DNA of 64,000 nucleotides, taken from contig JACVGT010000013.1 of the NCBI GenBank assembly GCA_018992685.1, positions 32,001-96,000 on the forward strand, read 5' to 3'. This DNA comes from Theionarchaea archaeon (GTDB lineage: Archaea > Methanobacteriota_B > Thermococci > Methanofastidiosales > SZ-28-30). Of the stretch, positions 26,486-56,386 are shown piece after piece. The position numbers and the translations under genes are program-made. The notes below the pieces were generated by a model. That model was not told the DNA's origin and did no database searches. It worked only from the letters and a program-made list of their open reading frames with translations. How positions within the stretch are numbered: the stretch's first letter is position 1; each line of letters begins with the position of its first letter.

Positions 26486-27231
26486 ATGTGTACCGCGTGA
26501 CGAGATTTGAAGTCAGCAAGCTATTCAGGCAGAGAATAGCCCATGCAGGCTTCATCGTTGTCTTTCTTGTGTGCTGCGTATACTGTGTGATAAACTGGAT
26601 GACCCGCCCTGTTGGATCTTACAGTGGAGTCATGATTATTACCGACAACATCAGTTTCCAGAACAGTCTGCTGATTCTGCCGTTTCTGGCCATTCTGGTG
26701 GCAGCCAACTCTGTCAGCGGAGAACTATCTTCAGGAACCCTGCGAACCCTGCTTACCAGACCGGTGAAGCGAGATAATGTGATAGTAGGGAAGTTTCTGG
26801 CCGAATTCTTGTACATGTGCCTGGTTGTGTATGGAATTGCACTGCTCTCCTTTCTGTTTGCAATCAGATGGGGATTTCCCGAGGACTTCATATCCTTCAT
26901 TCCCAGATTGCTTCTGATCTGCCTGGTGTATGTCCTGATTAACATGATATTGGCGGCCTTCACCTTTGTGGTAGCATCTCAGAGCACCAGCATCGCTCTC
27001 ACTGCCTTTGCGTCCTTGGGATTCTACATGATATCAATGCTTGTGGAATTCTTCAACAAGATCCAGACGTATATGTTCCTCAATAACGCCCAGACTCTGT
27101 TCCAAATGCTGATGGGAGGACCATTTGAATTGAGGTCTACCTACTTTTCTGTGGGAGTAATTCTCATCTACACACTGGGTCTCCTGTTAATTGCCTCGGT
27201 GTTATGGGAAAAAAGAGATATCAGGTCCTGA
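26482..27231 (+). CDS. ABC-2 type permease
   Basis: SGE.SSGTLRTLLTRPVKR..V..GK; 6 TM; EKRDI terminus. Confidence 0.88.
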   Translation: MNVYRVTRFEVSKLFRQRIAHAGFIVVFLVCCVYCVINWMTRPVGSYSGVMIITDNISFQNSLLILPFLAILVAANSVSGELSSGTLRTLLTRPVKRDNVIVGKFLAEFLYMCLVVYGIALLSFLFAIRWGFPEDFISFIPRLLLICLVYVLINMILAAFTFVVASQSTSIALTAFASLGFYMISMLVEFFNKIQTYMFLNNAQTLFQMLMGGPFELRSTYFSVGVILIYTLGLLLIASVLWEKRDIRS

Positions 27232-27502
27232 ACAATGGTCATTCGTTGCCCATTCTGTATGGAGAGAATGGGCTTTTTTCATCCTCTATTGCTCCAGGAG
27301 CTCCAAGACCATGATCACAGCGAGTAATCACTTTCTGAACGAACACAACTTACCAGCAGAGATAGAAATTCTTCAAATACCCTGAAAATTTTCCCATTAC
27401 CGTCTGTCATCACCCATAAAAAAAGTCAAGAATCTCGCAAGCAGATTTGAACAGTTGTACCATCATGCAAACATTTATATATCGATTTTGAGCTTTATGA
27501 AG

Positions 27503-27655
27503 TGGAGGAAAAGACGAGAGACGAGATACTGTGTGTTTCCACGGGGTTCATCGGGCCCCCTTGAGGCAAGAAAGCGGTCCAATATGCCCCGGTTATGGTG
27601 GCGTTCTGGTCGTTGAGCCTTTTCTCACAGTATTTCTCTCCAGAGGTGAGAGAGA
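27503..27655 (+). promoter_or_regulatory. Structured riboswitch-like 5' leader of the GH3-like gene
   Basis: TATA 27474-27481; nested stems with G-U pairs on the + strand; alternative hairpin covers the RBS and start codon. Confidence 0.5.
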
Positions 27656-28854
27656 TGAGTTCCATCCTGAATGTACTGCAATGCGTTGACGAGCCCGCCT
27701 GGATGAAGAGTCCGGTAGAAACGCAAGAAAAGATACTTGAGGACATTGTCCACAGAAATAGGAATACTCGATTCGGAAGAGAGTATCTATTTAGAGAGAT
27801 TAGAAGTACAGAAGATTACAGAAAATGCGTTCCTCTTTCTATGTACTGTGATATTGAACCATATGTACAGAGGATGGTGTATGGGGAAAAGGATGCTTTG
27901 GTCATGGAGCAGGCCACAGCATGGATCGAGTCTGTGAGACTCGACAGAAAATCACGGTTGATTCCATACACTCAGGACATGGCTGGTGGATTCAGGGATG
28001 CATATCTGAGGTTGTTTGCCTCCAGAACAGAAGATTGGGCGTACGTTTCGGGAAAGGTGATTGCTGGATTGGAACATCCCATCCACATGGTAGGGGGAAA
28101 TCCAGCAGGAGACATACTTGCTCTGGGAAGCAGCACGCTGAGATCAACGCCAGTCTTGGGAAAGGTAATCACTCCTCGGCTGACAGAATCTGATGCTGAT
28201 TGGGAAAAACGGTGGAAGAAGGCTGCTCAACAGGTTTCAAGACAGAATGTAATTTCTGCTATTGTTGATCCAGTTCTCTTTCTGAAATTCCTGCGGATGA
28301 TTCAATCCAACAGCGGAGTGGCTGACATTCGTCAATTGTGGCCTGATTTCTCCTTGGTAATGACGACAGTAAACACAAGGCCTTTTGAGAACGTGCTTCA
28401 ATCTCTTCTGGGTCATGTGGAGTTCAGGAGGCTATTCTGTACTGATGAGGTTGTCGTAGCCGTCCAGCTGGATGAAAAAGGTGTGGTGCCCTTGCTTGAC
28501 CACTGCTATCTTGAGTTCATTCCTTTGAAGCAGTGGAGAGATATGGAACTTGAAGGAGGAACCTACAGGGAATACGGATTTGACATTGAGACTATCGACA
28601 CTGCTGTTTCAGGAGAAGAATATGTTTTAGTCGTTACTACATCTGGGCTGTACCGGTATATCTCTGGAGACATTGTCACTATGGTTGATAGTCTGCACAT
28701 GGAACCAACTGGGTTCATTGACGAATGGGCAGTTCTTCCTGAACTCGCGCAGCAAATCGTACTACTGAGGGAAGTGGCACGAGACACATCTCGGACAGAA
28801 CATCAGCTGGTGGCTGTGGAATCTGAACCCATGAGATTTCTGTTCAAAATCTGA
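27655..28854 (+). CDS. GH3 acyl-amido synthetase-like protein, degenerate and C-terminally short
   Basis: N.NTRFGREY.F..I.S.EDY...VPL..Y, YLEFIP, GEEY.LVVTT.GLYRY..GD; GAGGTGA SD supports start 27655. Confidence 0.8.
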   Translation: MSSILNVLQCVDEPAWMKSPVETQEKILEDIVHRNRNTRFGREYLFREIRSTEDYRKCVPLSMYCDIEPYVQRMVYGEKDALVMEQATAWIESVRLDRKSRLIPYTQDMAGGFRDAYLRLFASRTEDWAYVSGKVIAGLEHPIHMVGGNPAGDILALGSSTLRSTPVLGKVITPRLTESDADWEKRWKKAAQQVSRQNVISAIVDPVLFLKFLRMIQSNSGVADIRQLWPDFSLVMTTVNTRPFENVLQSLLGHVEFRRLFCTDEVVVAVQLDEKGVVPLLDHCYLEFIPLKQWRDMELEGGTYREYGFDIETIDTAVSGEEYVLVVTTSGLYRYISGDIVTMVDSLHMEPTGFIDEWAVLPELAQQIVLLREVARDTSRTEHQLVAVESEPMRFLFKI

Positions 28855-29137
28855 ACCTGGTAGGAGTACGAACCTCGGAGTGTGACATGCAAGGGGAAGG
28901 GGACTGGTTCCATGAGAGACTGTACGGTTCCCGTGAATATGGACACTTTGTGACTGATAGAATCCTCGAAAGAATCCTGTGGTCAATCCCACGATACATG
29001 GACGGTTCAACTTCTGGCTCATGCATTCTCTTTTTCCACAAGATCTGAAGAGAGTTTCATGAATATCGGCTAGTCCGTACCCCTACCTCCACTAGTTCTT
29101 GTGTTCTATGTACAATCTCAGTGAAAGCAATCTGTTC

Positions 29138-29238
29138 AAAAAAGGAATGAAAGAGTGGGATTGAGAACAAGACGAAGGAGGTGAAATCCATGGAAGTGGT
29201 AACTTGTTTTCTTCCCACTCTTTGGAGTTGTTACTCCG
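29138..29238 (-). ncRNA. Candidate anti-SD sRNA, copy 1
   Basis: BRE/TATA 29259-29272, long stem, loop CCAUGGAUUUCACCUCCUUC, U6 tail. Confidence 0.65.
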
Positions 29239-29392
29239 CATATTCTTTGTCATGTCCCTTTTTAAACTTTTGCAGTATTCGATACCCGTCACATCGTACT
29301 GATTTGTGTAGTTTTTACTCTAATCAGGAGGGAGCACAAAATTACCATCCAGAAAAGTGCAACTAGTATTCTTTTATCTGGAAAACATTCGT

Positions 29393-29495
29393 GAGAAGAA
29401 GGATTGAGAAGAGTGGGATTAAATAAACAAGACGAAGGAGGTGAAATCCATGGAAGTGGTAACTTGTTTACCCACTCTCCTCAGTGTTTAACTAC
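29393..29495 (-). ncRNA. Candidate anti-SD sRNA, copy 2
   Basis: BRE/TATA 29518-29531; 44-nt core identical to copy 1; varied but paired stems; pyrimidine tail. Confidence 0.65.
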
Positions 29496-29720
29496 AATGG
29501 CACATTAGTGCCACTCCTTTTTAAGTCTTTGTAATGCTAATGTAATCAAATTTTCGGAATTAAAAAATATGACCTATTTTATGGTTCCAAGTGCACATTA
29601 TTTCTCAATTAGACTTTTTATTTAGATAACTCTATCTCAAAGCGATTTCCCTATTCCTGATTCGCATATTGATCTGTGCAGGCTAATTCATTCCTGACCA
29701 GTACGTGAGATTTACGCATT

Positions 29721-30251
29721 CTATTCCTGGACAAAGTGCCATTCACACCATACATCTCCTGAATGCTCGTCAGGGGGACAGCGCACGCAGACACACGTGA
29801 TATGAGGGTTGATTTCTCTTACAAAATTGGAGAGGTAGTTGTATCTCACCTGTTTGCAGGGGAACTCTGGAAATCCTTTCTTTAACCGAGTTAACTGTGT
29901 CTTGCAATTGAGGATCCTCAGAATGCCTGTACCATTTTCCACGGTGATGATTTTCTCCTGTTGATCAAGTGCCCAGCTCGTGGTCTGCAGAGCTCTCATG
30001 AGAGTCTCAACAGAAGGGTCTTGCAGGTTCAAGATACGCTTGAGGGCTTTTGCTTCAAGAGTTCCCATGGCATTCCACACTTCGGCATCAATTTCTGCAG
30101 CAGCCTCTGTCCCAAACCGGTTCTCAATACCCAGAAAGTACAACCCATCTACTCTCCAGATGTTCCTGTTATTGAACATCATAATCTCAATGAGCTTATC
30201 CCTAGGCAATGCTTCCAACATGTCTCTGTCTTCGTCACTGATGTACGACAT
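29721..30251 (-). CDS. DUF6125-like (V4R-related) protein
   Basis: W.VDGLYFLGIE.RFGTEAA, C.TQ..R..KG..EFPCK, C..CPPD......CEW.F. Confidence 0.75.
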   Translation of the reverse strand: MSYISDEDRDMLEALPRDKLIEIMMFNNRNIWRVDGLYFLGIENRFGTEAAAEIDAEVWNAMGTLEAKALKRILNLQDPSVETLMRALQTTSWALDQQEKIITVENGTGILRILNCKTQLTRLKKGFPEFPCKQVRYNYLSNFVREINPHITCVCVRCPPDEHSGDVWCEWHFVQE

Positions 30252-30333
30252 TGAGTCACCGAATCTGGCTTCACTCTTCACCATATAAGTGTTACCCTCC
30301 AAACCAGAGTATGAAGGTCGCTCAAAGAGCCAC

Positions 30334-31641
30334 TCACACCCCCCCACAGGCTGTGGCAAGGGTTCTCCATTGTGGAAACCTCTTTGGGTTTTTTGGATAT
30401 CGACTGTAAACAGCCCTTAGGATACCCATCTTGCCGAGAGCACAGGCCAATTTGAAGAGGAGGGAAGGGGTTTTTGCTGCATTAGCGGCTGTGGTAAGGA
30501 TGTCAGTCAACGTAAAGGAGGGTTCTTTTTCCTCCAGCTGAGACAAGACTTCATCAGTGATGACATTCTGCAACAAGGATTGGAGTTCTTTGCTGGTAAG
30601 AGACACCATGAAGTCTCTTAAAGGCAGTGATGATCCAAGAAGCGCACCGTATCTCTGCATGAAATCATAGTTGTACTTCCACAATACCTCCAGAGAGGTG
30701 TCTTTGCTGTGGATGGCCTCTGCTGCCGTTGTAGCTGCCATGTGGCCTGCAGTGAAGGCAGGTGCTATTCCTTCTCCTGTCAAGGGATTCGTGTGCCTGG
30801 CAGCATCACCACAGGCCAAGAGACCTGGAGCCACCATGGAAGGAAGAGAACCTCCAAGGGGGAGAGCACCATAGCCTGCTTGGGTTTTCTCCTTGATTTT
30901 GAATCGTGTGTGTTCGTGGAGCGCCTGAGCCACTGCCTTTCTGAAATGGGTACTGCGCTGTTCCATCCCTCCAGCACCCACGTTCAATTCATAGGTTCCC
31001 TTGGGAAAGAACCAGAAATACCCTGAAGGCACGAAGGAATTGTCAAAAACGATGGTTGCGTATTCCTGAGATATTGCCTCTTCCAGGATGATGTTCTCCT
31101 TATATCCCAATCCGATACGTGATGGGCTGCCGCGCCCACGTCTGAGCTCCCTACTGAGGACAGAGAAAACCCCACTACAATCCATGGTCAATGTCCCAAG
31201 GTAGGACGCATCATGAGTCTTAACACCATGTACTTCATTTTTCCCAACAGACCCCCGTACGACTCCTTGGTGAAGTTCTGCTCCTCTTCTGAGAAGCTCC
31301 TTTACCATGGTCTGCCCAAACTGCCATCTGTCTATAGTGCATAGAGGGTCGGTCACCCGAACGATGCCATGGTCACCGTCCATAAGTCCAGAAAAGGTGC
31401 AGACTTGCAGGCCTTTCAAAGGATAATGATCAACAGAAATCTGAAATTCATTCTTGAGCCATTTCACGATCCTCATGGGCATGAGTTCTCCACAAATCTT
31501 TCTGCCGACAAATTCTCTCCCTTTACGTTCTATGATACAGATGGTGAGATCCTCTCTCAGTGCTGTTAGGCCTGCAGCTGCTCCTGCAATTCCGCAGCCA
31601 ACAATAACGAGATCATAGGGAGCAATCGTCATATCACTCAT
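30334..31641 (-). CDS. Geranylgeranyl reductase family flavoprotein
   Basis: VGCGIAG, KICG, GYFWFFP, GDAA..NPLTGEGI. Confidence 0.85.
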   Translation of the reverse strand: MSDMTIAPYDLVIVGCGIAGAAAGLTALREDLTICIIERKGREFVGRKICGELMPMRIVKWLKNEFQISVDHYPLKGLQVCTFSGLMDGDHGIVRVTDPLCTIDRWQFGQTMVKELLRRGAELHQGVVRGSVGKNEVHGVKTHDASYLGTLTMDCSGVFSVLSRELRRGRGSPSRIGLGYKENIILEEAISQEYATIVFDNSFVPSGYFWFFPKGTYELNVGAGGMEQRSTHFRKAVAQALHEHTRFKIKEKTQAGYGALPLGGSLPSMVAPGLLACGDAARHTNPLTGEGIAPAFTAGHMAATTAAEAIHSKDTSLEVLWKYNYDFMQRYGALLGSSLPLRDFMVSLTSKELQSLLQNVITDEVLSQLEEKEPSFTLTDILTTAANAAKTPSLLFKLACALGKMGILRAVYSRYPKNPKRFPQWRTLATACGGV

Positions 31642-31999
31642 GATTAAGGAATTGTTGTTTAAGAATCTTATCATTTAGTAATCATGGCTTGTAGAATCTT
31701 TAACTTAATTGACGGTTCTCTCTAAATTCTTCATTCGATGCAAAAAGCGCTACACGAAAGTTCTAAGATCGTTGTAAACTTTTCACGACATTTTGATTGA
31801 GGAATGTTTTCAGCCTGCAAAAGCTCTCACCCCGCTAGATCATTCTCCCATCCGGATTGTCAGTCCGTGGGCTGCAGAAACCGGCGGAGGATGTTGAGAG
31901 GCCGAACCTCGAGACTCGCTTTCTGAGCATCATCCAATGCTCAGTGCGCAGTGCAAAAGATTTATTACAGGATGCGTAATAGACTGTGGAGGTTACAGT

Positions 32000-33094
32000 A
32001 TGAGATCAGAAATTCAGGCCCTGGCCGGAACCTATGATGCTGATAACATTCACATCGGTGTGCTGGGTTCCCATTCTGCCCTTGAGGTTGGATATGGAGC
32101 CCGAGAAGAAGGATTTAAAACTGTAGTGATCTGTCAGAAAGGGAGAGAAAAGACCTACACCCAGCGGTTCAGATCTCTGTTTGACGAAGTGATTCTCCTG
32201 GAGAAATTCTCCCACATTTCGTCTCCTAATATTGTGGAGAAGCTCAGAACGTTGAATACCATCTTTGTTCCCAACAGGTCATTCTCAGTGTACTGCGGAT
32301 ATGACAATATTGAGACTAGGTTTGAGGTTCCTCTGTTTGGAGCACGAACAATGCTTCGAGCTGAGGAAAGAGATGTGCCCAAGAACCAGTACTATCTCAT
32401 GGAAAAGGCAGGAGTCCCATTTCCGAAAATAATAAGAAGTGCTGAACACATTGACAGATTAGTCATGGTAAAGCTGCCCCATGCTGTAAGAAAGGTGGAG
32501 CGGGGATTTTTCACGTGTTCATCATTCAAAGAATACACACACAGATCTGAGGACCTCATCAAAAAAGGGTTGATCACGAGAAGTGATCTAGAAAATGCAG
32601 TCATTGAGGAGTTCGTGGTGGGAGCTCTTTTCAACCTGGATTATTTCTATTCTCCGCTGCAGGATGATGTGGAGTTCATGGGGGCTGACCAGAGAATTGA
32701 AACAGACATTGAAGGGATACTCCACATGACAGCTGAAGAACAGAGAGCTTTTTCCCAGACGCCCACCGTCATCCCCATTGGACATCGAGGATTAACAGTG
32801 CGGGAGTCGCAGCTGGATACCGTATTTGAACTGGGTGAAAAATTCGCTGAGACCTGCAAACAGGAATATCCCCCTGGAATATTCGGATGTTTCGCATTGC
32901 AGGGAGTTTTCAACAGAGATTTGAAGTTTTATACCTTTGATGTGTCATTGCGAGTGCCTGGGGCGCCGATCTTGTTGACCAGCTCTCCCTATACGGTATA
33001 TAAGTACGGGATACAGATGAGTGTGGGACGGCGTATTGCCATGGAAATCCGGGAGGCGGTGAATGCGGGGCGGTTGTCAGACTGTGTCACATGA
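32000..33094 (+). CDS. purP: PurP-family FAICAR synthetase (ATP-grasp)
   Basis: LGSHSAL...GA.EEGF.T, FVPNRSF.VY, ERGFF, GRRIAMEI; GGAGG SD. Confidence 0.88.
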   Translation: MRSEIQALAGTYDADNIHIGVLGSHSALEVGYGAREEGFKTVVICQKGREKTYTQRFRSLFDEVILLEKFSHISSPNIVEKLRTLNTIFVPNRSFSVYCGYDNIETRFEVPLFGARTMLRAEERDVPKNQYYLMEKAGVPFPKIIRSAEHIDRLVMVKLPHAVRKVERGFFTCSSFKEYTHRSEDLIKKGLITRSDLENAVIEEFVVGALFNLDYFYSPLQDDVEFMGADQRIETDIEGILHMTAEEQRAFSQTPTVIPIGHRGLTVRESQLDTVFELGEKFAETCKQEYPPGIFGCFALQGVFNRDLKFYTFDVSLRVPGAPILLTSSPYTVYKYGIQMSVGRRIAMEIREAVNAGRLSDCVT

Positions 33095-49960: not shown

Positions 49961-50908
49961 TCAGGGCGAGGGAATGGCGAGATCCGCGGGGCCTTGCTTC
50001 GATAGGATCAGATCCGGGTGAATCTTTTCCACAAAATCTCGCATTATTTCTGCAAACTTGACCTTCTCCCTGGCGAACTTGGCAAGAAACTCTTCTGCAG
50101 TCCAGGGTTTGTAGATACCTCCTCCTGCTGCTAGGGCAGTGCCAGGTTCTATTTTGAAGTAACAGGGTGCCGTCACCCTGGCGAGCTCTGGTGTCTCCCA
50201 CATTCTGTTGTACCCGCCAAAAGACTCTGACAGCATCACGTGGATGTCCACTGGAATCTTCACTGCCTTTCTGATGGCAGCAAACATGGGGAGACTCAAA
50301 TCGCCAAGTGGATTGAACGTATTTGCACCTAGTGACTCCAGGACCTTCCCTCCAGCACCACTTGCATGACCTGCGTAGATGGAAACCTTGAATATTGTGT
50401 CCTTTGGCACGATGCCGTCTTCCCGCAACTTGGAAAGCAGCCAGAGTGCTCCCTCATCCATAACCAGGAAGCCTCTGAACCCCAGTTCAACGCAGCGCAC
50501 AATATCTGCTACCAAGTATGACAAGTTGTCGCTCCCCCGGATTCTTGCTCCGGACAGACCTCCTTCTGGTGTAACCAGCTGTCGGCCTGTGTCCCAGCTG
50601 CTACGCGGTCCCGGTGTAAGAACCACTTCCATTTTCTTTTCCTTGGCCAGCCGGGCAAATTGAATCAGCTCCTCATCATCCAGGAGCGTCGAACCCATAA
50701 CCACGCTGATCAGCCGGTGTATGGGCACGTCACGTTTCTCCATTTCATCAACAAGAGCTTCCAACGTGGAAAGGTGTTCAACTCCAGAAATCTCCATGCG
50801 GTAGTGAGCACCATCAGGGAATTTCAAGGGAGAAGATGGTAGTTCGTACAAATCTCTCCCTGGAATTCCATGTTTTTCCATAGCACTCCTAATTTTCTGA
50901 ATGTCCAT
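49961..50908 (-). CDS. Uncharacterised TIM-barrel protein (peptidase U32-like)
   Basis: GFRGFLV.DEG, FKVS, GANTFNP..DLSL, P.YFK; GGAGGA SD before ATG 50908. Confidence 0.6.
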   Translation of the reverse strand: MDIQKIRSAMEKHGIPGRDLYELPSSPLKFPDGAHYRMEISGVEHLSTLEALVDEMEKRDVPIHRLISVVMGSTLLDDEELIQFARLAKEKKMEVVLTPGPRSSWDTGRQLVTPEGGLSGARIRGSDNLSYLVADIVRCVELGFRGFLVMDEGALWLLSKLREDGIVPKDTIFKVSIYAGHASGAGGKVLESLGANTFNPLGDLSLPMFAAIRKAVKIPVDIHVMLSESFGGYNRMWETPELARVTAPCYFKIEPGTALAAGGGIYKPWTAEEFLAKFAREKVKFAEIMRDFVEKIHPDLILSKQGPADLAIPSP

Positions 50909-55420: not shown

Positions 55421-56386
55421 TTGCCTACCAGCCTTGAAGCTAAAATGAGGCACTACAGGATGATCTATGAAATTCTGTGGTTCCAGACACCACGAATCCC
55501 TGTTAAAGATATTTCTTCCGTGCTTCACGTTGACCCCAGAACTGCTAACAGAAGGATGAAAGAAGCAGTCACCCAAGGATATCTTGCAGGACCTCAAATC
55601 AGAAAACGCTCTTATGCGAATATGAAAGAGTATATGTACTTCATTTCCTGTGAAAATCCTTTCCCCAGGTACCTGAGCTACAGCAAGGATGAACAGGTAG
55701 TTTACCATGCTAGAATGGCTGGGTTTGCCAGTTTGTGGGTAATCTCCAAGGCCCCTCTGGACATCAAAGACGCCATAGTACTGGAAGGATACCGATCTGA
55801 CTACCACCTTTCATGCCCTCCTGACCAATCATGGGAACACGCAGTGGAGATCATGACGTCTTCCATAGAAACCTGTGACCTCCACAGATGGCAGCCCAAG
55901 GGAATTCTCAGCAATCGTTGGGACACGCATGTCCAGTGGGACGAGGAAGATGAGTCTTTATACAAGTATTTTAAGTACAACTTGAGGAAACCCTTTTCTC
56001 CCGTAATGAGGAAACATCTCATCAGCTCCGGGAAAATATATTCATTTCTTGAAAAGCTGCCTTCCTGCTGCACTCTGGTTACCAGTTATTTCCCGGAAGG
56101 AGTAGCTGCATACGACCCTTACCTTTTCATGTTTGAAACGGAGTATGAAGATTTCGTCATTGACGTGTTCTCCCAGCTTCCTACATCTTGCTTTTTCTTC
56201 AAGGTCTCGGGCAGGCTATTCTTGTTGGCGTATGTGAAGCGTCATCTCCTCAGGTATGATGGTCTCACCATTTCTGACATAGGCCAGTTGCAGATTCCCA
56301 TTCTGGTAAAGGCTCTCATGGACGAAGGAATCATCACGAGTGAAGATCACGCCATAGTGGAATATCACTGGGCAAAAGATTTGTAA
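55421..56386 (+). CDS. Hypothetical protein with duplicated HTH-like modules
   Basis: KDISSVLHVDPRTANRRMKEA HTH; second helix pair near KPFSPVMRKHLISSGK; start uncertain. Confidence 0.6.
   Translation: MPTSLEAKMRHYRMIYEILWFQTPRIPVKDISSVLHVDPRTANRRMKEAVTQGYLAGPQIRKRSYANMKEYMYFISCENPFPRYLSYSKDEQVVYHARMAGFASLWVISKAPLDIKDAIVLEGYRSDYHLSCPPDQSWEHAVEIMTSSIETCDLHRWQPKGILSNRWDTHVQWDEEDESLYKYFKYNLRKPFSPVMRKHLISSGKIYSFLEKLPSCCTLVTSYFPEGVAAYDPYLFMFETEYEDFVIDVFSQLPTSCFFFKVSGRLFLLAYVKRHLLRYDGLTISDIGQLQIPILVKALMDEGIITSEDHAIVEYHWAKDL

What the first reader, a model, noticed from the sequence alone, without database searches (positions are those of the whole stretch)
29138..29531. Tandem pair of promoter-bearing hairpin sRNAs displaying an identical anti-Shine-Dalgarno / anti-AUG loop
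Seen: a 44-nt block is identical at 29166-29209 and 29426-29469. On the minus strand each copy has a BRE/TATA (GCAAAAGTTTAAAAA; CAAAGACTTAAAAA) 56-57 nt from the core, a small 5' hairpin, a long stem and a pyrimidine/U tail. The stem sequences differ but pairing is kept (AAAGAGUGGGA/UCCCACUCUUU versus GAGGAGAGUGGG/CCCACUCUUCUC, with a G-U that works only on minus). The invariant loop, CACUUCCAUGGAUUUCACCUCCUUC, is the exact complement of AAGGAGGUGA-AAUCC-AUG, an ideal SD plus start codon. Known: UCACCUCCU matches the 16S rRNA 3' tail, and sibling CCUCC-loop sRNAs exist in Alphaproteobacteria (CcsR/cuckoo). Inference: a sibling-sRNA translation-control system in an archaeon. It may block one target beginning M-E-V-V-T, or act broadly as a 16S-tail mimic on leadered mRNAs.
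Basis: partly seen in the sequence, partly recalled or inferred. Interest (0 to 1): 0.85.

Follow-up and report, generated by a model that had tools for sequence, protein, structure and literature searches.

The report
Archaeal sRNA pair, anti-ribosome-site loop
Two neighbouring genes for roughly 100-base non-coding RNAs in an uncultured archaeon belong to an undescribed RNA family whose unchanging loop is the mirror image of an ideal ribosome start site, so it probably acts on translation.

Summary
The 44-nt block is identical at 29166-29209 and 29426-29469. Each copy sits in a long hairpin with its own stem.

It is a family. There are 4 copies in this genome, 2 and 3 in the two other genomes of the genus, and about 40 more in metagenome contigs. 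It was found in 0 of 130 other genomes of the class. Rfam has no match.

The stem covaries strongly while 21 nt of the loop never change in the copies found.

The RNA strand is minus:
- G.U pairs exceed A.C pairs 34 to 7.
- A promoter matching this organism's tRNA and rRNA promoters lies upstream in 22 of 22 copies on minus, and in 0 of 22 on plus.
- A T-run follows the stem in 21 of 22 copies.

Plus-strand peptides are not conserved.

Function is inferred only. The loop is complementary to a Shine-Dalgarno site plus AUG, but no full-length target exists in this 91%-complete genome. A 16S-tail mimic role stays open. The verdict is a new archaeal sRNA family, similar in kind to bacterial CcsR/cuckoo RNAs, with its mechanism untested.

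The parts
29516..29531 (-). Promoter of the upstream copy (copy 2). It reads BRE-like CAAAGA plus TATA CTTAAAAA (29525-29518) followed by GG.
   Evidence: Read. The motif AAR-N1-3-YTTAWAW lies 44-53 nt upstream of the stem core in 22 of 22 type-A copies on minus, and in 0 of 22 on plus. It matches this genome's tRNA promoters and the rRNA promoters of same-genus genome G032.
29382..29495 (-). Predicted copy-2 sRNA, about 100-115 nt. The start is near 29495-29493. The termination signal is weak: a pyrimidine run, then T4 at 29385-29382.
   Evidence: The start is inferred from the TATA-to-tRNA-5'-end distance of about 30 nt in this genome. Fold. RNA-run contigs cover 29299-29507, unstranded. Both ends are inferred, not mapped.
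29408..29480 (-). Copy-2 hairpin. The outer stem is 29482-29471 with 29417-29406. An A/U-rich inner stem and a roughly 31-nt apical loop follow.
   Evidence: Covariance-model match of 53.6 bits with R1 and 70.8 bits with R2. Fold.
29435..29455 (-). The 21 nt of the copy-2 loop that never change in the family: minus-strand UUCCAUGGAUUUCACCUCCUU. It holds the anti-SD word CACCUCC and CAU, the complement of AUG.
   Evidence: Unchanged in 38 of 39 aligned copies; the type-B copy from contig C11 (locus L004) reads U for the C of CACCUCC. Most were collected with a pattern that fixes these letters.
29258..29273 (-). Promoter of the downstream copy (copy 1). It reads BRE-like GCAAAA, G, TATA TTTAAAAA (29266-29259), then G.
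29138..29236 (-). Predicted copy-1 sRNA, about 99 nt. It has a 5' hairpin (29237-24), the long hairpin, and a T6 tail at 29143-29138.
   Evidence: Fold gives -29 kcal/mol with z = -3.9. The T-run is read. RNA-run contigs cover 29180 to about 29317, unstranded. Both ends are inferred.
29150..29223 (-). Copy-1 hairpin. The outer stem is 29223-29213 with 29160-29150. The inner stem is CAAG/CUUG plus neighbours.
   Evidence: Covariance-model match of 53.0 bits with R1 and 72.1 bits with R2. Fold.
29175..29195 (-). The 21 invariant loop nucleotides of copy 1.
29532..29720 (-). Spacer between the stop of the DUF6125 gene and the distal promoter. It holds blocks conserved among orthologous loci: a T5 run, then ...CGAAAATnTGATCAAATAAATA next to the BRE. 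Possibly the DUF6125 terminator and a regulator site.
   Evidence: Alignment of type-A loci. Function not examined.

Best explanation
Each copy is a gene, on the minus strand, for a structured non-coding RNA of about 100 nt.

An archaeal BRE/TATA promoter starts transcription about 10-15 nt before a long hairpin. An oligo-U stretch ends it. The upstream copy has a weak stop, so some of its transcripts probably run into the downstream copy.

The hairpin's outer stem is free to change as long as it pairs. Its job is to hold open a loop of about 31 nt, of which 21 nt never change: UUCCAUGGAUUUCACCUCCUU.

That loop is the complement of a maximal Shine-Dalgarno sequence, a 5-nt spacer, AUG and the next codons. 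The most likely mode of action is base-pairing with ribosome-binding regions of Shine-Dalgarno-led mRNAs. This would keep 30S subunits off them, in trans for the free-standing copies.

In other family members the same hairpin is built into longer RNAs just upstream of small winged-helix regulator genes. There it may act in cis.

Supported by sequence comparison: the repeat, the family, the covarying stem, the strand and the promoter/terminator signals. Inferred: the transcript ends, the pairing partner, and any effect on translation.
For: Family and conservation:
- 4 copies in this genome, 2 and 3 in the two other genomes of the genus, and 40 metagenome stretches. This gives 47 distinct copies.
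- 11 of 15 type-A loci queried have the same neighbour (DUF6125, 69-85% identical). 9 of 15 have the GH3-like gene on the other side at only 37-80% identity. The loop is still letter-perfect.

Structure, on alignment A4 (39 rows, 37 distinct):
- 94.4% of 498 cells pair.
- 13 of 14 pairs show changes on both sides.
- 0 of 500 shuffles reach the covariation score.
- Slid controls pair at 40-60%.

Strand:
- On that alignment there are 34 G.U cells against 7 A.C cells. In the nine outer pairs the count is 26 against 1.
- A strand-symmetric count on 28 distinct core helices gives 12 internal and 2 edge G.U against 1 A.C.
- A second long-range helix in the longer C1 relatives also carries G.U on minus.

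Transcription signals:
- A promoter motif is present in 22 of 22 copies upstream on minus and in 0 of 22 on plus.
- It resembles this genome's tRNA promoters, of the type CAAAG-N-TTTATAA about 30 nt before the tRNA. It also resembles the two rRNA promoters GAAACGTTTAAAAG in G032.
- A T-run of 4 or more lies within 30 nt 3' of the stem on minus in 21 of 22 copies, and of 5 or more in 12 of 22.

Other support:
- Plus-strand ORFs from the conserved ATG are 5-58 aa (43 complete of 47). They use different frames through the stem.
- The organism does use Shine-Dalgarno sites. GGTGA followed by ATG and an ORF of at least 100 codons occurs 479 times, and GGTGA is found 293 times against 52 for its reverse upstream of long ORFs.
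- Two metatranscriptome runs hold contigs over 29180 to about 29317 and 29299-29507.
- Anti-RBS loops are an established sRNA mechanism in Methanosarcina mazei (sRNA154, sRNA41; passages of PMC5867862). The same holds for CcsR/cuckoo RNAs (passages of PMC8034643).
Against: - No target was found. The only sites complementary to the whole loop are the sRNA genes themselves.
- The best other gene starts are generic strong Shine-Dalgarno sites.
- For the syntenic ABC-2 permease gene, the match beyond the Shine-Dalgarno word is not kept in orthologues.
- Binding 6-9 nt Shine-Dalgarno words does not explain why 21-30 nt are invariant. The genome shows no consensus spacer or second codon that the loop could mirror.
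- Transcript strand and ends are not measured. The RNA-run data are unstranded contigs at depth 2-4, may include DNA, and extend across the copy-1 promoter.
- Two looser strand counts showed no minus preference. MFE folds gave 54 G.U on plus against 55 on minus, and the minus fold was the more stable in 25 of 44 copies against 18. A permissive helix aligner gave 58 G.U against 68 A.C overall, and 12 against 29 in type A. I set these aside after seeing them, because they extend into A/U-rich inner and flanking parts where pairing is doubtful.
- On plus, the TATA word reads as T5 preceded by a small hairpin. That looks like a terminator: 2 found against 0.6 expected.
- Both strands fold better than shuffles.
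Confidence: 0.5

Rival explanations
1. The loop imitates the 3' end of (pre-)16S rRNA rather than targeting mRNAs. It could titrate a factor that recognises that end during small-subunit maturation, such as the KH protein Dim2/Pno1 or the endonuclease Nob1. Or it could pair with pre-rRNA through its 8-nt palindrome UCCAUGGA.
For: - In the one genome of the genus with a complete 16S 3' end (G032), the rRNA reads ...GAUCACCUCC|AAUUCCAUGGAC. So both loop words, UCACCUCC and UUCCAUGGA, lie within 20 nt of each other there.
- The second word is absent after the 16S rRNA in 8 of 8 operons from other families of the order. Only G032 gave an exact match among 133 class genomes.
- Invariance of a long loop fits a partner as conserved as the ribosome.
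- The Dim2/Pno1-like gene start is 6th of 479 in predicted pairing with the loop.
- A 23S segment near nt 290 resembles the loop's complement. 4 of 300 shuffled queries score as high.
Against: - It rests on one rRNA operon.
- The two words are in the opposite order in the loop.
- RNAduplex energy against the rRNA operon (-34.2) is within the range of 30 shuffled loops, -27.0 to -34.9.
- The Dim2 gene start matches mainly through its Shine-Dalgarno word and AUGGAAG. Predicted pairing falls to -22.1 in the third genome of the genus.
- Which factors bind the 16S rRNA 3' end is recalled knowledge, not tested here.
Confidence: 0.15
2. The hairpin is a protein- or RNP-binding module of unknown partner. 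The invariant loop is the recognition site and its likeness to an anti-SD sequence is incidental. It is reused in free sRNAs and in leaders of regulator genes.
For: - A letter-perfect loop of 21-30 nt with freely varying stems is typical of a site read by one conserved partner.
- The module occurs in at least three contexts.
- No RNA partner was found.
Against: - No candidate protein is linked to it. The neighbours differ between classes: DUF6125 and GH3-like for type A, wHTH genes for the others.
- A 10-nt run complementary to a maximal Shine-Dalgarno site followed at ideal spacing by CAU is unlikely to be incidental. This is my judgement, not a computed probability.
Confidence: 0.15
3. The plus strand is the functional one. 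The block would be a very strong ribosome start site for a short ORF (MEVV...), either a leader peptide or a small hydrophobic toxin. The minus-strand RNA would be its cis-antisense regulator, as in type I toxin-antitoxin pairs.
For: - It has a perfect Shine-Dalgarno site, 5-nt spacer and ATG.
- The conserved block spans about -19 to +11 around the ATG, roughly a 30S footprint. The footprint size is recalled.
- Many type-A peptides are short and hydrophobic.
- A terminator-like hairpin plus T5 lies downstream on plus.
- Tandem copies are common in type I systems (recalled).
Against: - 0 of 22 copies have a promoter-like word within 90 nt upstream on plus.
- The peptides are 5-58 aa and pass through the stem in all three frames.
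- The G.U asymmetry shows selection for pairing on minus.
Confidence: 0.07
4. It is a DNA-level element, such as a recombination or replication site or a miniature mobile element. It would have spread recently, which would explain the identical cores.
For: - Many copies exist, and some lie in variable gene islands.
- In one DNA run the summed depth of contigs over the core is about 250 times that of the flank, 4070 against 16.5. The tool warns that this is not a copy number.
Against: - The type-A locus is syntenic across relatives whose flanking proteins have diverged to 37-49% identity, so it is old and vertically kept.
- Stems vary while the centre is fixed, the reverse of terminal-repeat elements.
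- G.U asymmetry is an RNA signature.
- 0 matches in viral contigs.
Confidence: 0.03

Closest known systems
CcsR / 'cuckoo' sRNAs of Alphaproteobacteria
   Same: Both are tandem sibling sRNAs lying next to a small gene of unknown function. Both have hairpins whose loops carry a pyrimidine-rich anti-Shine-Dalgarno word, and copy number and locus layout vary (passages of PMC8034643).
   Different: There is no sequence or Rfam relationship. Here each RNA has one long hairpin, not two. The loop word is CACCUCCUU within a 21-nt invariant block that also covers the start codon, not CCUCCUCCC. The host is an archaeon, the promoter is BRE/TATA, and the neighbour is DUF6125, not DUF1127.
Methanosarcina mazei sRNA154 and sRNA41
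   Same: These are archaeal intergenic sRNAs reported to mask ribosome-binding sites with a loop (passages of the review PMC5867862).
   Different: They are unrelated in sequence, as far as the absence of any Rfam match shows. Those RNAs have defined targets and were tested at the bench. Here there is no defined target, the loop complements an idealised start site, and the family is multi-copy and modular.
3' end of 16S rRNA and its precursor
   Same: UCACCUCC is shared. In the same-genus genome G032 the word UUCCAUGGA also follows the 16S rRNA 3' end.
   Different: The two words are in reverse order. There is no other similarity to helix 45. It is not part of an rRNA operon.
Type I toxin-antitoxin antisense RNAs (e.g. 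Sib/Ibs; recalled)
   Same: Both involve tandem intergenic copies. In both, an RNA is fully complementary to a short ORF's start site on the other strand.
   Different: The plus-strand ORF is not conserved in length or frame and has no promoter.

Membership tests
Any Rfam family (release 15) | Match to a covariance model at or near its gathering score | tested here: not met
   There were 0 matches at gathering score in the 64-kb window. In 27000-32000 at E up to 10 there were 3 chance-level hits, none in 29138-29531.
CcsR/cuckoo sRNA | Two hairpins, each with CCUCCUCCC in the loop | tested here: not met
   The predicted RNAs have one long hairpin and the loop reads ...UUUCACCUCCUUCG. The defining motif is taken from PMC8034643.
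CcsR/cuckoo sRNA | Adjacency to a DUF1127 gene (CIN1 subgroup) | tested here: not met
   The neighbour is DUF6125, E = 9.2e-36.
Trans-acting anti-RBS sRNA (functional class) | Own promoter and terminator on the strand that folds | tested here: met
   The promoter motif is present in 22 of 22 copies on minus. A T-run of 4 or more follows in 21 of 22. G.U exceeds A.C by 34 to 7. These are signals only; no transcript ends were mapped.
Trans-acting anti-RBS sRNA (functional class) | Unpaired region complementary to Shine-Dalgarno/start regions | tested here: met
   The loop is unpaired in the MFE and centroid folds. It complements AAGGAGGTGAAATCCATGG. The genome uses GGTGA-type Shine-Dalgarno sites.
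Trans-acting anti-RBS sRNA (functional class) | Identified target mRNA(s) whose translation falls when the sRNA is present | not testable with these tools
   Predicted partners only. None is conserved beyond the Shine-Dalgarno word.
Archaeal C/D-box or H/ACA guide sRNA | C (RUGAUGA) and D (CUGA) boxes, or an ACA box after the lower stem. The motifs are recalled. | tested here: not met
   Neither UGAUGA nor CUGA occurs in the two predicted RNAs, read. The stem is followed by CAUUCC or CAAUCC, not ACA. No Rfam snoRNA-type hit.
Type I toxin-antitoxin | Conserved small toxin ORF with its own promoter opposite the antisense RNA | tested here: not met
   The ORFs are 5-58 aa and their frames differ. 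0 of 22 copies have a plus-strand promoter motif.
   The genome-wide seed search finds only the 4 sRNA loci. The start regions of 19 loci of the roughly 300-aa HTH paralogue family near type-B/C copies do not resemble the block; local alignment scores are 11-19.

The most novel reading that the evidence does not exclude
The hairpin is a portable mimic of the small-subunit rRNA 3' end. It shows the anti-SD word, the initiator anticodon triplet CAU, and a word that in this genus also follows the 16S rRNA 3' end. The cell would use it, as free sibling sRNAs and as a built-in leader module of regulator genes, to couple ribosome maturation or free 30S supply to the translation of Shine-Dalgarno-led mRNAs. 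That would be a global riboregulator of a type not described in Archaea.
Probability: 0.15. Interest if true: 0.85.

Novelty: new variant of a known kind. Interest (0 to 1): 0.62.

Why it matters
Few archaeal regulatory RNAs have a known mode of action, and none that I could find comes from this uncultured lineage. That rests on the literature searches, in which I read listings and the starts of abstracts only. Related records are labelled Theionarchaea or Thermococci.

This is a well-supported RNA family: a covarying stem, its own promoter, and conservation that exceeds that of the neighbouring proteins. Its loop gives a directly testable hypothesis about translation initiation in Shine-Dalgarno-using archaea.

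Binding Shine-Dalgarno words does not explain why the whole 21-30 nt loop is invariant. That points to a still unknown, very conserved partner. The covariance model also gives annotators a way to mark these loci in metagenome bins.

Tried and rejected
Rejected readings and leads that went nowhere:
- Rfam: nothing found.
- Plus-strand coding: rejected.
- Minus-strand ORF from the loop's own AUG (MDFTSF...): 8-138 aa, in frame with the downstream wHTH gene in one locus and out of frame in a close relative. Rejected.
- 'M-E-V-V' target: the only candidate in the window, near 50631 on minus, is internal to a 326-aa ORF.
- Contig 24 site with 20 of 21 letters of the block: it lies antisense inside a long ORF, so it is a chance match.
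- ABC-2 permease gene start (window 26482, -29.0 kcal/mol): the spacer match is not kept in 6 orthologous loci.
- Start regions of the roughly 300-aa HTH paralogue family: not related to the block.
- Loop as 'anti-consensus start site': there is no consensus spacer. ATCC occurs in 4 of 253 spacing-4 sites.
- Cis-pairing of non-A hairpins with the 268 nt downstream: the mean is -22.0 against -18.4 for 299 random windows, and 4 of 21 fall beyond the 5% tail. The loci are related and strong Shine-Dalgarno sites explain most of it, so this stays a lead only.
- Dim2/Pno1 gene start as a target: the three sRNA-bearing genomes score -29.3, -27.1 and -22.1, against -9.4 to -23.8 in the 27 other loci. 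They are close kin, so this also stays a lead only.
- 23S and whole-operon pairing: not beyond shuffles by energy.
- Viral contigs: 0 matches.

Methods that failed or misled:
- MAFFT alignment A1 put the two stem classes out of register. It was not used for pair counts.
- The MFE-based and permissive strand counts showed no minus preference. They are reported in the Against line.
- Read laying: parts of the stretch without RNA cover are not used as evidence. The RNA contigs resemble the G032-like variant, whose flanks differ from the window.
- Complex prediction, structure prediction and protein homology searches were not used, because no protein is claimed.
- Supplementary files of papers were not asked for.
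Full report
OBSERVATION

The 44-nt block is identical at 29166-29209 and 29426-29469. Its inner 29 nt occurs exactly twice in the window, against none in 100 shuffles.

Each copy is enclosed by complementary arms that differ between the copies. They lie at 29150-29160 with 29213-29223 for copy 1, and at 29406-29417 with 29471-29482 for copy 2. The TATA-like word and part of the arm are repeated at the same 258-260-nt spacing.

Both strands fold better than shuffled sequence. The z-scores are -5.0 and -3.9 on minus, and -3.5 and -3.1 on plus. Folding alone therefore does not choose a strand.

A FAMILY, NOT A LOCAL DUPLICATION

The window's genome has 45 contigs and is 91% complete. It holds four copies:
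- the two in the window;
- one on contig 11;
- one cut by the end of contig 1.

The two other genomes of the same genus hold 2 and 3 copies.

A covariance model built later found matches in 3 of 133 genomes of the class. All three belong to this genus (3 of 3, counting the window's genome), and 0 of 130 other genomes matched. The tool used stricter filters for so many genomes.

An exact-pattern scan of one-genome-per-species contigs gave 13 stretches:
- 4 come from archaeal records titled Theionarchaea or uncultured Thermococci;
- 9 come from bacteria, where the 20-mer is an ordinary Shine-Dalgarno-plus-ATG gene start.

The metagenome scan gave 40 stretches. Together with the genome loci this makes 47 distinct copies. 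One further variant copy turned up only with the model (L056:1586-1657).

Rfam has nothing. Viral contigs have nothing.

STRUCTURE

The copies fall into classes by their outer stem:
- Type A has GAAGAGUGGGA/UCCCACUCUUC. The window copies are of this type.
- Type C has GCAGAGGGUCUGCA/UGCAGACCCUCUGC, plus GC-rich variants.
- Type B has GGGAGAUCUGG/CCAGAUC-CCC. The copies on contigs 1 and 11 are of this type.

I built a model from 14 type-C hairpins and used it to align 39 copies of all classes (37 distinct rows). On that alignment:
- 94.4% of 498 cells form standard pairs;
- 13 of 14 pairs show changes on both sides;
- none of 500 shuffles reaches the covariation score;
- sliding the partner by 1-3 columns drops pairing to 40-60%.

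The alignment was fitted to the structure, which flatters it. The different stems are nevertheless plain in the raw sequences.

Between the stem arms, UUCCAUGGAUUUCACCUCCUU is unchanged in 38 of the 39 aligned copies. The exception is the type-B copy on contig 11, which reads UUUUACC for UUUCACC. Variation occurs only at the loop's edges, mostly C to U. One caveat applies: most copies were collected with a pattern that fixes these letters. The invariance therefore holds for the copies found, not for all that may exist.

WHICH STRAND

Two first attempts were inconclusive or pointed the other way:
- MFE folds with the core kept open gave 54 G.U pairs on plus and 55 on minus. The minus fold was the more stable in 25 of 44 copies and the plus fold in 18.
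- A permissive helix aligner that tolerates both G.U and A.C gave 58 G.U against 68 A.C overall. In type A it gave 12 against 29.

Both methods run into the A/U-rich inner part and beyond the helix ends. I then restricted the count to what certainly pairs.

- On the best ungapped helix of each of 28 distinct stems, I counted non-Watson-Crick positions flanked by two Watson-Crick pairs on each side. They are G.U on minus 12 times (plus 2 at edges) and A.C once.
- On the model alignment the count is 34 against 7. In the nine outer pairs it is 26 against 1.
- The longer C1 relatives have a second helix of 13 pairs some 100 columns downstream, which also uses G.U on minus.

The choice of the stricter counts was made after seeing the looser ones. 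The copies are also related, so these are not independent trials.

TRANSCRIPTION SIGNALS

In 22 of 22 type-A copies with enough flank, a word of the form AAR-N1-3-YTTAWAW lies 44-53 nt upstream of the stem core on minus. In 0 of 22 does such a word lie within 90 nt upstream on plus.

The consensus CAAAnnTTTAAAA(A/G)GG closely resembles two sets of promoters. One is this genome's own tRNA promoters, for example CAAAGTTTATAAAG and GAAAGACTTATAAAC, whose TATA starts about 30 nt before the mature tRNA. The other is the two tandem promoters GAAACGTTTAAAAG upstream of the rRNA operon of same-genus genome G032.

From that distance I place the starts near 29236 for copy 1 and near 29495 for copy 2. 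A conserved (U/G)AAACAC word sits there in many copies.

A T-run of at least 4 follows the stem within 30 nt on minus in 21 of 22 copies, and of at least 5 in 12 of 22. In tandem pairs the upstream copy tends to have the weaker run. Window copy 2 has only T4 at 29385-29382. This fits read-through into the downstream copy.

There is a caveat. Read on plus, the same TATA word is a T5 run, and small hairpins precede it in both window copies. The bacterial-style scan flags them, 2 found against 0.6 expected. The conserved BRE-like CAAA would have no role in a terminator, so I read the word as a promoter.

CONTEXT

Type A is one orthologous locus. The order is an ABC ATPase gene, an ABC-2 permease gene, a GH3-like gene on plus, then the sRNA(s) on minus, then a DUF6125 gene and a geranylgeranyl-reductase-like gene on minus.

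Of the 15 type-A loci queried:
- 11 carry the DUF6125 homologue (69-85% identical);
- 9 carry the GH3-like homologue (37-80% identical);
- 4 (L010, L034, L041, L066; the last three are near-duplicates) lie elsewhere.

The RNA is thus far better conserved than its neighbours.

The other classes lie in variable regions. These hold HxlR/PadR-like winged-helix genes, a roughly 300-aa HTH paralogue family with about 20 loci in this genome, and small glycine-rich secreted peptides.

In these classes the hairpin sits on the same strand directly upstream of a winged-helix gene. In one subgroup it is within about 20 nt of that gene's start site. In another (C1) it is the 5' domain of a roughly 200-nt structured RNA with a second anti-SD-like word.

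CODING POTENTIAL

ORFs from the conserved plus-strand ATG are 5-58 aa, with a median of 21 (43 complete of 47). They share only MEV(V/I) and cross the stem in all three frames. ORFs from the loop's minus-strand AUG are 8-138 aa. Neither strand looks like a gene.

RNA DATA

Of 22 runs listed, 2 are metatranscriptomes holding a small share of the words. Laid on 28900-29700, their contigs cover 29180-29295 with 22 further letters, 29396-29495, and 29391-29507 with 92 further letters. Depth is 2-3.8.

These contigs resemble the G032-like variant. They are unstranded, and several of their ends coincide with the ends of DNA-run contigs, which suggests graph branch points.

This is weak support for transcription of the pair, perhaps as one precursor. 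It gives no support for either strand.

WHAT THE LOOP MIGHT BIND

The organism uses Shine-Dalgarno sites of the GGTGA type, most often 4 nt before ATG: 253 of 479 sites, with 102 at spacing 5.

A genome-wide seed search finds the full complement only at the four sRNA loci.

Among 479 Shine-Dalgarno-led starts, predicted pairing with the loop has a mean of -17.9 kcal/mol, a 1% tail at -29.4 and a best value of -33.3. The top of the list includes:
- an ABC ATPase-like gene;
- three secreted peptidase genes (S8, C25, M14);
- a Dim2/Pno1-like KH protein gene;
- the syntenic ABC-2 permease gene in the window.

None keeps complementarity beyond the Shine-Dalgarno word and AUG in orthologues. There is no consensus spacer or second codon that the loop could mirror.

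Shine-Dalgarno/AUG masking is therefore plausible. It does not explain the invariance of the whole loop.

AN UNEXPECTED LINK TO rRNA

The window's genome lacks a 16S rRNA gene. In same-genus genome G032 the 16S rRNA ends ...GAUCACCUCC and is followed by AAUUCCAUGGACUC. So the loop's second word, UUCCAUGGA, containing the 8-nt palindrome UCCAUGGA, lies 2 nt past the 16S rRNA 3' end.

Eight operons from other families of the order have different trailers. Only G032 matched exactly among 133 class genomes.

A 23S segment about 290 nt from its 5' end resembles the loop's complement. It scores 27, and 4 of 300 shuffled queries score as high. Duplex energies against the operon are no better than for shuffled loops.

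With one operon this remains an unexplained coincidence. It keeps a 16S-end-mimic reading alive.

COMPARISON WITH WHAT IS KNOWN

The nearest analogues in kind are two groups.
- The CcsR/cuckoo sibling sRNAs have a CCUCCUCCC anti-SD loop in each of two hairpins, in tandem next to a DUF1127 gene. I read passages of PMC8034643.
- The Methanosarcina mazei sRNAs 154 and 41 mask ribosome-binding sites. I read passages of the review PMC5867862.

This family shares the idea but fails the defining features of CcsR and has no Rfam relative.

Two full-text searches found nothing on such RNAs in this lineage, judging by listings and the starts of abstracts. 'Theionarchaea' with 'small RNA' gave 3 papers. 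'Anti-Shine-Dalgarno' with sRNA, archaea and loop gave 30 papers, of which 15 were listed.

VERDICT

The sequence feature and its reading as minus-strand sibling sRNA genes are well supported. The mechanism is inferred. It is most likely pairing with ribosome-binding regions, less likely mimicry of the 16S rRNA end or binding of an unknown factor. I rate it a new variant of a known kind, with interest 0.62.

Noticed in passing
L075 (G032 contig 127, 58100-58420, minus strand): The 16S rRNA of the same-genus genome ends GATCACCTCC and is followed by AATTCCATGGACTC. This shares the 9-mer TTCCATGGA with the sRNA loop. Other families of the order have unrelated trailers.
   Followed up: partly
L077 (G032 rRNA operon), 23S about 290 nt from its 5' end: AGACGAAGGTGAAGTCTCCTGGAATGGTA resembles the plus-strand block. 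4 of 300 shuffled queries score as high. Duplex energy is not better than for shuffled loops.
   Followed up: partly
L076 (G032), about 240-290 nt upstream of the 16S rRNA: There are two tandem promoter words GAAACGTTTAAAAG. They are useful as this lineage's strong-promoter consensus.
   Followed up: partly
window 29532-29720: The spacer between the DUF6125 stop and the distal sRNA promoter holds blocks conserved across orthologous loci. They include a T5 run and a TGATCA-centred word next to the BRE. It may be a regulator site.
   Followed up: no
window 55427-56386 (+) and about 19 other loci in the genome: There is a large paralogous family of roughly 280-325-aa proteins with an N-terminal HTH and no Pfam family for the rest. 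Members flank the non-A sRNA copies. Some copies look broken, for example on contig 11 next to L004.
   Followed up: partly
L030, L038, L045, L048, L050, L060, L065 (about 250-730 nt from the hairpin, opposite strand): Small genes encode 66-120-aa peptides with a signal-like hydrophobic N-terminus and a glycine-rich C-terminus ending ...PSPCGGG..GG.PG. Pfam gives no convincing match.
   Followed up: no
Genome contig 1, 255674-256225 (-) (L099/L101): The start site of the Dim2/Pno1-like KH protein gene, AAGGGAGGTGAAGGAATGGAAG, ranks 6th of 479 for predicted pairing with the loop. Scores are -29.3, -27.1 and -22.1 in the three sRNA-bearing genomes, against -9.4 to -23.8 in 27 other loci.
   Followed up: partly
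L031, L032, L044, L047, L053, L054, L056, L059, L061 (C1 relatives): Downstream of the hairpin, a 13-bp long-range helix (GAGGGUGGGGGA with UCCCCCACCCUC) encloses small hairpins. It is preceded by a second UCACCUCC word and followed by the promoter and start of a PadR/HxlR-like gene. This may be a larger riboregulator.
   Followed up: partly
window 29170-29196 in DNA runs X6 and X7: The summed depth of contigs matching the core is about 4070 and 2683, against 16.5 and 4.2 for the flank. This suggests many copies or lineages in those samples. The tool warns that it is not a copy number.
   Followed up: no
window 29083-29098: CCCCTACCTCCAC on plus (GTGGAGGTAGGGG on minus) lies about 50 nt beyond the copy-1 T-run. 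It resembles the GGAGGUGGGGG word that follows the hairpin in C1 relatives. It is not present at the orthologous place in G032.
   Followed up: no
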